Made by a program: the position numbers
Part shown: piece after piece, positions 44,101 to 47,100 of the stretch
How positions within the stretch are numbered: the stretch's first letter is position 1
Layout: each line of letters starts with the position of its first letter
Source: Candidatus Woesearchaeota archaeon
Lineage (GTDB): Archaea > Nanobdellota > Nanobdellia > Woesearchaeales > JAFGUC01
DNA: 64,000 nt
Direction of reading: 5' to 3'
Assembly (NCBI GenBank): GCA_016938695.1
Contig: JAFGUC010000006.1
Location: 62,001-126,000, forward strand

Positions 44101-47100
44101 TGGAAAAAATCTAAAAAATTAGTTAAAAAGGGAGATTTTTCCGAGATGGATTGGAATTACGATCTTGTTGAGCAAGATCTTTCTGATGAAGATATTTTGG
44201 TGGAAATCTCAAAAATATTAAAGACACAAAAGGAGCATATTGTTTCAACATTGAAAAGATTTTTAGTGGAAATAGAATCATTAAAATGAAATTATCTTAT
44301 TTGAAATCAAAATTGAATTCAGATTTTTTTAGTGTTTTGGAGTCAAAAGGATTGGATGACTTACGTCCTTGTCAAGAGAAGGCTATTGATTCTGGCCTTT
44401 TGACTTTTGAAAATATTTTAGTGTGTTCTCCAACAGCATCTGGTAAAACATTGGTTGCAGAGATTGCTGCATTGCAATCAATTTTGACAAAACGTGGTAA
44501 GGCCATTTATATTGTTCCACTTAAGGCTTTAGCAACTGAAAAATATAATGAATTTACTAAACGTTATGGTCATTTGATAAAAATTGGTGTTTCAATTGGA
44601 GATACTGACTCGAGTGAATCTTATTTGTCAAAATATGATTTAGTTATTACAACTTCTGAAAAATTAGATTCTTTGATTAGACATCACACTCCTTTTTTGG
44701 ATGAGATTTTTTGTGTGATAATTGATGAAATTCATTTGCTTAATGACACTGAACGTGGACCAACACTTGAAATTGTTATAACTATTTTGCGTGAATTGTT
44801 GAAAAATATACAATTAATTGGTTTATCTGCGACAATTGGTAATGAAAAAGCTCTTTCTGATTGGTTGGGTGCAAAATTGGTTCACGATACTTGGCGACCA
44901 GTAGAATTGCACGAAGGAATAATTTTTGACGATGTAGTTGAATTTTATTAGGATTTTATCTTAAAATTTATAAACTTCTAGCGGGTTATTTGTATTATGG
45001 TTGTTAGAATTATTCTTGATACTAATTTTTTCATGATTCCTAAAGATTTTAAGGTTGATATTATATCTGAATTTGACAAACTTTTTGGTTTGAATGCATA
45101 TGAATTGTTTACTTTCCAAGCGGTTTTTAGTGAATTGGATTCTTTGTTTTTGAAGCTTAGCGGTTCTGAAAAACAACTTGCTAAGTTAGGACGAACTTTT
45201 TTGCAACATCTTCAAAAAACGAAAGGTTTAAAAACAATATCTTCGAACAATGAGTTATATCTTGATGATGCTCTTATTAGTTTTTTGACTAATCATAGCG
45301 ATTATTATGTTGCTACAACAGATAAGCAGCTTCAGAATAAGGTTAAAGAGTTGGGGGCAAAGGTAATTTGTGTCCGCCAAGGTAAATATTTAATGGTTAA
45401 GTGATTGGAGGATTTGTTAATATGTTTTACAAAGTAAAAATCAAGGATCATATTCGTGTAGCACCGGAATTGTTTGGTGAGGACGTTAAAACAGCTTTAC
45501 TTAAAGAAGTTAAAGCTAAGTACGAAGGTTTTATTTCAAAAGATTTGGGTTTTGTAGTTGATGTTCTTGATGTATCTAATTTTGGCGAAGGAGTTGTTAT
45601 TCCTGGCGATGGTGCAGCATATTATCACTCAGAATTTGAGTTATTAACTTTTAACATGGGTCTTCAAGAGGTATTATTGGGTCGTGTTAAAGATTTACAA
45701 GAATTTGGAGCATTTTTGACAATTGGTCCAATTGAAGGTATGATTCACATTTCACAAACAATGGATGATTTCGTTTCATTTAGTAAAGATAAGGTTTTGT
45801 TAGGTAAAGATACTAAACGAAGTTTGAAGGTTTCAGACCTTTGCAGAGCAAGAGTTATTGCAGTTAGTTTCAAAGACCAATCAAATCCAAAAATAGGTCT
45901 TACAATGAGACAACCAGGATTAGGAAAACTAGATTGGATTGAAGAAGATTTGTCTGGGAAACCAAAAGCAAAATCTTCTTAAAACAAGAAGTCTTATCTA
46001 ATTTAAAAGAGGTGAATTAAAATAATTGATATCACTAAGTGGATGACCAAGAAGGTTTATACTGTACGACCAAGCGATTCGATTCGAAAGGCAATTAAGA
46101 TGATGGATTTGAAAAACATCGGTGCCTTAGTAGTTGAAGAGGATGGTGAACCTGTTGGAATAATTACTGAGCGTGATGTTATTCGCCGAGTTTTGAATAA
46201 GAACAAGGACCTTGATGTTACTTTGGTTAAGGTTGTTATGACTCATAAAGTTTTTGCGGTTGATGTAACTGCAACATTTGTTGAAGTAACAAAATTAATG
46301 ATTAAAAATAATTTACGACGAGTTGTGATTTTGAAGAGCGGAAAAATTGCAGGAATTTTAACTGCATACGATGTTGTTCGTTTCATGGCTTCATAAAAAT
46401 AATAGATGGTGTTAAAAAATGGCAAAGAGAGAAGCTTGTAAAACATGTAATTTGTTACTGGATGATTCCGGTGCTTGTCCTATATGTAAGAAGAGAAGTG
46501 CTTCACCTAATTGGACAGGAAGAATAAATGTAATTGACGCAGCTAAGTCGACAATTGCACAGAAAATGAACCTTACAGTAAAAGGCGAATATGCTATTAA
46601 GGTTAAATAAATTTTTATTTTTTGATTTCAAATGGCTAAATTCTACGTATTAAATCACGTTACAGGTAAGTTTTTGTTTGATGGTAATCTTGATATTGTT
46701 AAACAGATTAATTCTGATTCAGATTTACCAAATCCTGCAGATGATGATGTTTATTTTTTGAATGATTATGATTTTGCAGAGAAAAATGGATTTAAAGTAA
46801 ATTTTGATTTAACACGTGTTGGAAAATGTCTTTCTAAATTAAAATTCAACCAACAAGAAGTATTTAATTTTTCAGTAGAACGAACAAAGCGTTTAATTAG
46901 AAAATCTGTGTCTAAGGATATTTTAATTATTCAAGCTGTTAATTCAATTGATGAATTAAATAAATCAATAAACTTGTTGAGTAAAAGAATTCGTGAATGG
47001 TATTCTTTATACTTTCCAGAAAGTTCTGAAAAAATAGAAGACCACGAAAAGTTTATTAGAACAATTTCAACTAAATCTCGAGAAGAGCAACAGAGTTTTT

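What a model noticed while it worked through the whole genome (the two positions that open the first line are those of the whole stretch)
44286..44951. Hel308 helicase is split into two unlinked genes across Woesearchaeales
The DNA repair helicase Hel308 is encoded in two pieces: the first RecA domain (g00406, 221 aa, C20) and the rest (g00951, 533 aa, C70:41152-42753). The split is shared by the whole order, so the ATPase site must be assembled from two polypeptides.
Evidence so far: The halves cover residues 2-214 and 228-742 of the same 751-aa Swiss-Prot Hel308. In all 54 of 61 order genomes with a hit, the open frame holding the N-half is only 197-335 codons; in a phylum sample all 41 order hits are 215-350 codons while the one hit from another order lies in a 718-codon frame. 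Not mentioned in an archaeal Ski2/Hel308 survey (PMC10946056, term search, call 151) or an archaeal fusion/fission study (PMC11237513, call 122); searches 55 and 65 gave nothing on it.
(Added by a program. Inside this text positions count along the whole contig: contig position 62,001 is position 1 of the stretch shown here. "Call 12" and the like, gene names such as g00115 and contig names such as C1 are that model's own, and its searches are not shown. The text may have been shortened before it was handed on; [...] marks where a part breaks off. The agent that wrote the report below was given it as the finding of a first reader that could run no searches.)

Follow-up and report, generated by a model that had tools for sequence, protein, structure and literature searches.

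The report
Hel308 helicase built from two genes
A large group of tiny uncultured archaea encode the DNA-repair motor Hel308 as two separate, distant genes whose proteins likely clip together into one working enzyme, and the larger piece carries a short loop resembling the self-binding tag of the recombination enzyme RadA, which it likely uses to dock on RadA.

Summary
Confirmed and extended. Window 44286-44951 encodes the ATP-binding front of Hel308 (221 aa); the rest (533 aa) lies on contig C70; this genome has no intact copy. In 121 genomes of the order, 107 hold both halves and none a fused form; of 26 well-assembled genomes 24 hold both and 2 neither. The catalytic motifs are kept in both halves, and rear genes mostly have their own TATA-like box (23 of 28), so a two-subunit enzyme is likely; binding was not modelled or tested. 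The cut is not at the domain border: it falls about 19 residues into RecA2, inside a three-strand element shared by the halves. The rear half carries a RadA-like FxxA loop (119 of 120), also seen in some intact Aenigmarchaeota-type Hel308. Another order shows a second cut, directly after motif VI, made more than once. Split genes, even a split SF2 helicase (Lhr), are known in Nanoarchaeota; ten literature searches found no split Hel308. This scan reported the split and the loop earlier on other genomes.

The parts
44286..44951 (+). Front gene of split Hel308: RecA1 domain plus the first 19 residues of RecA2 (221 aa, P0001). Its partner gene (RecA2 remainder, winged helix, ratchet, helix-hairpin-helix, PIP-like tail; 533 aa, P0002) lies outside the window at G000:C70:41152-42753, minus strand.
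44430..44450 (+). Walker A / motif I (residues 49-55)
   Evidence: 94-100% conserved per column in 102 front halves
44724..44735 (+). Walker B / DExH motif II (residues 147-150)
   Evidence: 96-100% per column in 102 front halves
44826..44834 (+). Motif III, SAT (residues 181-183)
   Evidence: 100% in 102 front halves
44892..44948 (+). Tail, residues 203-221: start of domain 2, two predicted beta-strands; inferred docking element for the rear protein
   Evidence: W203 aligns to Hjm residue 198, the first of domain 2 (PMC2636818); strands 196-202 and 206-210 in the model of an intact relative; G211 100%, F220 97% of 101
44949..44951 (+). TAG stop at the conserved cut site
   Evidence: 61 of 80 further loci end 18-19 residues after the RP of the linker, 79 of 80 with a stop; second sample agrees
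41749..44289 (+). Context only: alanyl-tRNA synthetase gene overlapping the start by 4 bases (likely co-transcribed here; not a conserved neighbour)

Best explanation
Hel308 in this order is encoded by two unlinked genes cut about 19 residues into the second motor domain, and the two proteins likely assemble into one ATP-driven DNA translocase by completing a shared beta-strand element, with the rear protein likely docking on RadA and PCNA through short motifs. Shown: two stand-alone genes, conserved motifs on both, co-retention, a promoter-like box before most rear genes, the cut position, the loop and the PIP-like tail. Inferred: (a) each gene is transcribed and translated alone; (b) the front protein's tail gives two strands and the rear protein's first residues the third strand of the element that opens RecA2, while winged helix and ratchet close around RecA1 as in intact Hel308; (c) ATP bound by the front protein is hydrolysed with the motif VI arginines of the rear protein; (d) the FxxA loop binds the FxxA pocket of RadA (about 0.6 on its own); (e) the split arose once, from an intact gene, at the base of the order.
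For: Motifs that only work across the two domains are kept: Q30, Walker A, DExH, SAT 94-100% in 102 front halves; motif IVa F95 97%, motif V, motif VI Q160/R164/R167 100% in 120 rear halves. Co-retention: 107 of 121 genomes hold both; among 26 genomes of at most 8 contigs tested for both, 24 hold both, 2 neither, none one (1 in 325 by chance, kin not independent). TATA-like box 24-34 bases before the start in 23 of 28 rear genes (shuffled mean 2.9, max 10) and 13 of 29 front genes (2.7, max 9). In the model of an intact relative (pTM 0.90) three strands, 196-202, 206-210 and 213-216, precede the first RecA2 helix; front halves end after the second, rear halves begin with the third and keep its hydrophobic residue (90% of 120; 84% of 64 intact). 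The rear protein alone folds as Hel308 domains 2-5 with unsure domain placement (pTM 0.66) and no strand in residues 1-14. Rear halves form one clade inside intact proteins (90/85); one clade of front halves is not rejected (p-AU 0.69). None of 69 genomes of other orders with a match shows this stop. Loop: FxxA/G in 119 of 120 rear halves, 0% F at that column in the 69 closest intact proteins; RadA's own motif is FxxG with the same acidic-hydrophobic follow-up in 23 of 23; the loop is the least confident part of the intact model (pLDDT 69) and survives inside long low-complexity insertions, as a free docking motif would. PIP-like tail in 104 of 120.
Against: No binding, activity or transcript was shown. 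11 of 121 genomes hold one half only, among them G094 and G104 rated 100% complete, and six more front-only genomes turned up; all have 20 or more contigs, so drop-out fits, but true single losses are not excluded. No clear gain of interface residues goes with the split apart from the loop. Tree support for one origin is moderate, and an intact protein (P0169) fell inside the front-half clade in the free searches. The loop is not special to the split form (11 of 102 intact proteins) and is missing in P0103 and G033. A profile of the loop ranks RadA's own motif only 243rd of 456,741 windows in G000, and the likeness was noticed before the test. G000's own rear gene has no match to the TATA pattern. 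Which strands pair is recalled from SF2 folds; no call gave contacts.
Confidence: 0.8

Rival explanations
1. Loose, regulated pair: the rear protein also works alone as an ATP-independent strand-annealing and docking factor, and the front protein is a detachable switch that turns it into a translocase. Not exclusive of the main reading.
For: [quoted passage not shown] The rear protein holds domains 4-5 and both docking motifs, has its own promoter-like box and no conserved neighbour, so the ratio of the halves could vary.
Against: The halves are lost together in well-assembled genomes (G148, G257); no rear-only case among 26 such genomes. The lone rear model lacks its first strand, which suggests an incomplete RecA2.
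Confidence: 0.12
2. The halves are joined after expression, by RNA trans-splicing or a split intein, into a normal single chain.
For: Trans-spliced tRNAs and a split DNA polymerase gene are listed for N. equitans (PMC3655853 Table 1); cis-inteins occur in these Hel308 genes.
Against: The inteins sit in motifs I, V and VI, not at the cut. Front halves stop 18-19 residues after the linker, leaving no room for an intein piece; Cys in the last 15 residues in 4 of 101, an intein-end motif in the first 40 residues in 3 of 120. Rear starts follow a TATA-like box at leaderless spacing; the DNA after the stops looks unrelated from locus to locus (by eye).
Confidence: 0.03
3. Each half pairs with a different helicase or has taken a separate role.
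For: G000 encodes other SF2 helicases; single-half genomes exist.
Against: Those helicases are intact single chains; the two halves are exactly complementary, with a few linker residues missing, and are co-retained.
Confidence: 0.03
4. Assembly or binning artefact, or a decaying pseudogene.
For: Most genomes are fragmented metagenome bins; G000 is rated 5.4% contaminated.
Against: Same stop position in about 190 loci including three single-cell genomes; both halves on single-contig genomes; invariant motifs at 58-65% mean identity; second sample confirms the stop.
Confidence: 0.01

Closest known systems
Archaeal Hel308/Hjm (P. furiosus 2ZJ2/2ZJ8, A. fulgidus 2P6R, S. solfataricus 2VA8; NCBIfam PRK02362, NF040935)
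   Same: All five domains in order across the two proteins; helicase motifs I-VI; motif IVa aromatic; domain-5 RxRAR; C-terminal PIP-like box as in PfuHjm.
   Different: Two unlinked genes; neither half reaches a curated cut-off alone (271 and 455 bits against 887); a winged-helix loop with FxxA that the solved structures lack.
Split protein genes of Nanoarchaeum equitans and Nst1, including the SF2 helicase Lhr (NEQ003/409, Nst172/239) and reverse gyrase
   Same: A single-chain enzyme encoded by two distant genes in the same phylum, read as derived and reassembled in trans (PMC3655853, passages and Table 1).
   Different: Hel308 is not in that list; Lhr is intact in G000; those splits are from two reduced hyperthermophile genomes, whereas this one is fixed over more than 100 families in genomes of 0.6-2.7 Mb. 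Where Lhr is cut was not seen in the passages read.
FxxA motif of RadA/RAD51 and BRCA2 BRC repeats
   Same: F-x-S/T-A/G followed by a short helix; glycine at position 4 occurs in archaeal RadA and binds about sixfold weaker than alanine as a tetrapeptide (PMC4855620, passages).
   Different: Here it sits in a loop of a helicase winged-helix domain; binding is untested. A Hel308-RadA contact has been suggested without clear data (PMC13623763).

Membership tests
Hel308/Hjm (Ski2-like SF2) | RecA1 with Q motif, Walker A, DExH and motif III | tested here: met
Hel308/Hjm (Ski2-like SF2) | RecA2 with motifs IV, IVa, V, VI and the beta-hairpin | tested here: met
   on the rear protein
Hel308/Hjm (Ski2-like SF2) | Winged helix, ratchet (PF21280) and helix-hairpin-helix domains | tested here: met
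Hel308/Hjm (Ski2-like SF2) | Descent from archaeal Hel308 rather than Lhr, ASH-Ski2 or DSHCT-type Ski2 | tested here: met
   best family and structure hits are Hel308; nested among intact Hel308 in trees; other subfamilies were not placed in the trees
Hel308/Hjm (Ski2-like SF2) | All five domains in one polypeptide; curated whole-protein score reached | tested here: not met
   two genes; scores below cut-off for each half. Hence filed as a split variant, not a plain member
Hel308/Hjm (Ski2-like SF2) | ssDNA-dependent ATPase, 3'-5' translocation, strand annealing | not testable with these tools
   needs purified proteins
Nanoarchaeota-type split protein genes | Complementary halves as separate unlinked open frames, intact elsewhere | tested here: met
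Nanoarchaeota-type split protein genes | Post-translational assembly into an active enzyme | not testable with these tools
   inferred only
Split-intein (trans-spliced) proteins | Intein pieces at the end of the front and the start of the rear protein | tested here: not met
FxxA recombinase-binding motif | F-x-x-A/G in an exposed flexible segment | tested here: met
FxxA recombinase-binding motif | Binds the FxxA pocket of RadA/RAD51 | not tested

The most novel reading that the evidence does not exclude
The split makes Hel308 a two-part switch: the rear protein rides on RadA filaments through its RadA-mimic loop and on PCNA through its tail and anneals DNA by itself, and the separately expressed ATP-binding subunit clips on to turn it into a translocase. 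Hel308's second motor domain is a recurrent breaking point: cut once in this order and at least three times, at one identical codon after motif VI, in another order.
Probability: 0.2. Interest if true: 0.82.

Novelty: new variant of a known kind. Interest (0 to 1): 0.62.

Why it matters
SF2 helicases are taught as single chains whose two motor domains must be tethered. A natural, stably inherited two-gene Hel308 shows where the motor can be cut, gives ready-made halves for testing how ATP use, translocation and annealing are coupled, and explains why annotation sees only 'hypothetical' or 'helicase-related' proteins in these genomes. The FxxA loop turns an open question, whether archaeal Hel308 touches RadA as HELQ touches RAD51 (PMC13623763), into a one-residue test.

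Tried and rejected
Complex prediction (RadA core with the loop) was not available, so neither RadA binding nor the pairing of the halves was modelled. No RNA holder listed for the stretch; the one RNA run of the same study laid nothing: no evidence either way. X1 may be the source of this DNA and is not independent; X2 covers the rear gene only in small pieces. Loop as a split-specific clamp on RecA1: rejected as main reading, since it occurs in 11 of 102 intact proteins (18 more of the 120 lacked the marker) and stays low-confidence beside RecA1. The same motif in the window's Rad3/XPD helicase ranked first in the profile scan but is absent from 29 other XPD loci: not used as support. Gene neighbours: ftsY lies convergently downstream in 50 of 110 front loci, no conserved neighbour in 30 rear loci; not found beside seven intact genes within 1.5 kb: no functional link drawn. 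Re-fusion of P0169: not supported, it lies outside the rear-half clade. G263 (another order) has a rear half on a 3.1-kb contig and no front half: stray contig or transfer, undecided. Two-piece hits in G354, G369, G377, G391, G416, G418 are contig ends or gaps (G391 not cut out). One search returned two genomes and added nothing. Literature: searches gave 0 papers; others gave lists with no title or abstract start on a split Hel308. Term passages of PMC10946056 (plus section 18 and its one supplement), PMC11237513 (plus seven supplement files), PMC8407392, PMC8301817, PMC7437997 and PMC13623763 do not mention it. Subscription papers and bioRxiv supplements could not be seen.

Full report
Observation. 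The frame at window 44286-44951 (+) gives 221 residues and ends in TAG. Its partner at G000:C70:41152-42753 (-) gives 533 residues. They cover positions 8-217 and 223-715 of the 739-position Hel308 model PRK02362 and residues 12-213 and 226-701 of P. furiosus Hjm. A six-frame search of the genome finds no intact Hel308; Lhr (967-codon frame) and a DSHCT-domain Ski2-like helicase (651) are whole. A contig from a second sample of the same study spans the stop without a difference.

Spread. In 121 genomes drawn evenly from the order (one per family, G000 included), the front half was found in 111, always in an open frame of 197-350 codons, and the rear half in 114. Both are present in 107, the front only in 4, the rear only in 7, neither in 3. 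Unusually long frames were cut out and read: none joins the halves (G067 not read). Ten genomes have both genes on one contig, 29-423 kb apart, often on opposite strands. Eighty further front loci, titled mostly Woesearchaeota or Nanoarchaeota and including three single-cell genomes, give proteins of 219-244 residues in 79 cases, one being cut by a contig end. The best 120 of 3149 protein hits to the rear half are 487-573 residues long although lengths up to 933 were allowed. Outside the order: of 69 genomes of other orders with a match, none shows this stop (my count, with doubtful cases read); in one large sister order Hel308 was found in only 3 of 61 and 5 of 61 genomes of two overlapping samples (one hit in each is the DSHCT-type paralogue by length and score).

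Both halves are under selection and go together. Walker A, DExH and motif III are 94-100% conserved in 102 front halves; motifs IVa, V and VI, with both arginines at 100%, in 120 rear halves (these are the best 120 by likeness to P0002). These motifs line one cleft in Hjm (PMC2636818, passages), so each half keeps residues that are useful only against the other. Among 26 genomes of at most 8 contigs tested for both, 24 have both and 2 (G148, G257) neither; 16 of the 24 were picked because they had the rear half, and G306 was left out. Single halves occur only in assemblies of 20 or more contigs, at about the rate expected from incompleteness, though two such genomes are rated 100% complete. 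A TATA-like box (pattern recalled) starts 24-34 bases before the start codon in 23 of 28 rear genes, peaking at 28-29 (shuffled mean 2.9), and in 13 of 29 front genes (5 of 33 rear and 1 of 30 front loci dropped for lack of a start or of upstream DNA). This fits separate leaderless transcripts and speaks against splicing; no intein pieces lie at the cut.

Where the cut lies. W203 of the front protein aligns to residue 198 of Hjm, the first residue of domain 2, so the front protein carries 19 residues of RecA2. In a model of an intact relative (P0208, pTM 0.90) strands 196-202, 206-210 and 213-216 precede the first RecA2 helix. Front halves end right after the second strand, with its glycine and phenylalanine at 100% and 97%; rear halves start a few residues before the third strand and keep its hydrophobic residue (90% of 120, against 84% of 64 intact). 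The lone rear model has no strand there and a lower pTM, 0.66, yet matches Hel308 domains 2-5. I infer assembly by strand completion plus the usual wrapping of winged helix and ratchet round RecA1; the pairing of strands is recalled, and no complex model could be run.

History. Rear halves form one clade within intact proteins (bootstrap 90, SH-aLRT 85; 25 split and 32 intact rows). An earlier quick tree with other rows put G000's own rear half outside with weak support. For front halves the free trees placed intact P0169 inside, but one clade is not rejected (p-AU 0.69). One derived fission is the simplest reading; it is not proven.

A RadA-like loop. The winged-helix wing of 119 of 120 rear halves holds an insertion with D/E-F-x-S-A/G-x-E/D-hydrophobic, absent from the 69 closest intact proteins and the solved structures. 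RadA of this order has the like motif G-F-E/Q-S-G-x-D/E-hydrophobic in 23 of 23 readable loci of 30. FxxA is the motif by which RadA/RAD51 bind themselves and BRC repeats (PMC4855620, passages). The loop also occurs in 11 of 102 intact proteins, several labelled Aenigmarchaeota, where it is the least confident part of the model, so it is unlikely to be a clamp for the split and more likely binds an outside partner. Against: RadA's own site ranks 243rd of 456,741 windows under the loop's profile, the likeness was seen first and tested after, and binding is untested. A 2026 review says a Hel308-RadA contact has been suggested without clear data, and that domains 4-5 alone anneal strongly (unpublished) (PMC13623763, section 4 and passages). 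A PIP-like tail ends 104 of 120 rear halves, as in Hjm.

A second cut. In another order of the class, 3 of 28 genomes with a match (G414, G434, G455; 39 searched) encode Hel308 as a front part that stops exactly after motif VI and a rear part that starts just before the last RecA2 strand. In single-contig G455 four lipid-metabolism and phosphoesterase genes lie between them; in G414 they are 25 kb apart on opposite strands. Nine of 117 proteins checked end at that same residue. They are not one clade (p-AU 4e-5 for front parts, 6e-7 for rear parts), and G434 has intact relatives in its genus, so this cut was made, or undone, more than once. Several intact proteins have a methionine two residues after the site, a ready start codon; this explanation is a guess. 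Both cuts fall in RecA2 next to a beta-strand.

Known and new. Split protein genes, among them the SF2 helicase Lhr, are listed for N. equitans and Nst1 (PMC3655853, passages and Table 1); Hel308 is not. Searches, term passages of PMC10946056, PMC11237513, PMC8407392, PMC8301817, PMC7437997 and PMC13623763, and the supplements of the first two gave no mention; subscription journals and bioRxiv supplements were not visible. Notes of this scan report the same split and loop on other genomes, and probably the second cut; I noted the loop before seeing those on it, and they are not independent evidence.

Verdict. Real, order-wide in the sample, most likely a working two-subunit Hel308 (0.8). New variant of a known kind; interest 0.62.

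Noticed in passing
G414:C4:30950-32047 and 56951-57934; G434:C64 and C62; G455:C1:291635-296233 (L234-L237, L248); P0259-P0267: Second, independent Hel308 split in another order: front part ends exactly after motif VI, rear part starts before the last RecA2 strand; not one clade, so repeated at the same codon.
   Followed up: partly
window 21118-23220 (-): Rad3/XPD-type helicase with a long N-terminal extension holding the best FxxA-loop match in the genome; the extension is absent from 29 relatives.
   Followed up: partly
L212-L215, L225, L228; P0179: Cis-inteins with LAGLIDADG domains in motif V or VI of rear halves (G091, G071, G077, G085; partial in G057, G102) and in Walker A of one stand-alone front half.
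   Followed up: partly
L069 (G056:C56): Rear half runs on in frame into a downstream SAM-dependent methyltransferase gene (769 codons): stop loss, fusion or sequence error.
   Followed up: partly
L068 (G263:C67): Rear half of this order's type on a 3.1-kb contig in a genome of another order, with no front half found: misbinned contig or transfer.
   Followed up: partly
order of G153 and G263: Hel308 was not found in most genomes of this large sister order; the few copies are intact.
   Followed up: partly
L072-L151: ftsY lies convergently downstream of the front gene in 50 of 110 loci; 18 of 80 loci carry the title 'uncultured Methanosarcinales archaeon' though they match these archaea, likely mislabelled records.
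   Followed up: no
window 44967-44974 (+): TATA-like box 30 bases before the downstream PIN-domain gene (44997), which suggests that the PIN-rpoE cluster is transcribed apart from the helicase front gene.
   Followed up: no
G000:C16:1-1527: A frame that looks like bacterial Mfd (recalled likeness, not scanned) on a small contig; probably contamination of the bin.
   Followed up: no
L001:7879-8139 (-): Short Lys/Ala-rich repetitive protein directly upstream of the rear gene, same strand; histone H1-like by eye.
   Followed up: no
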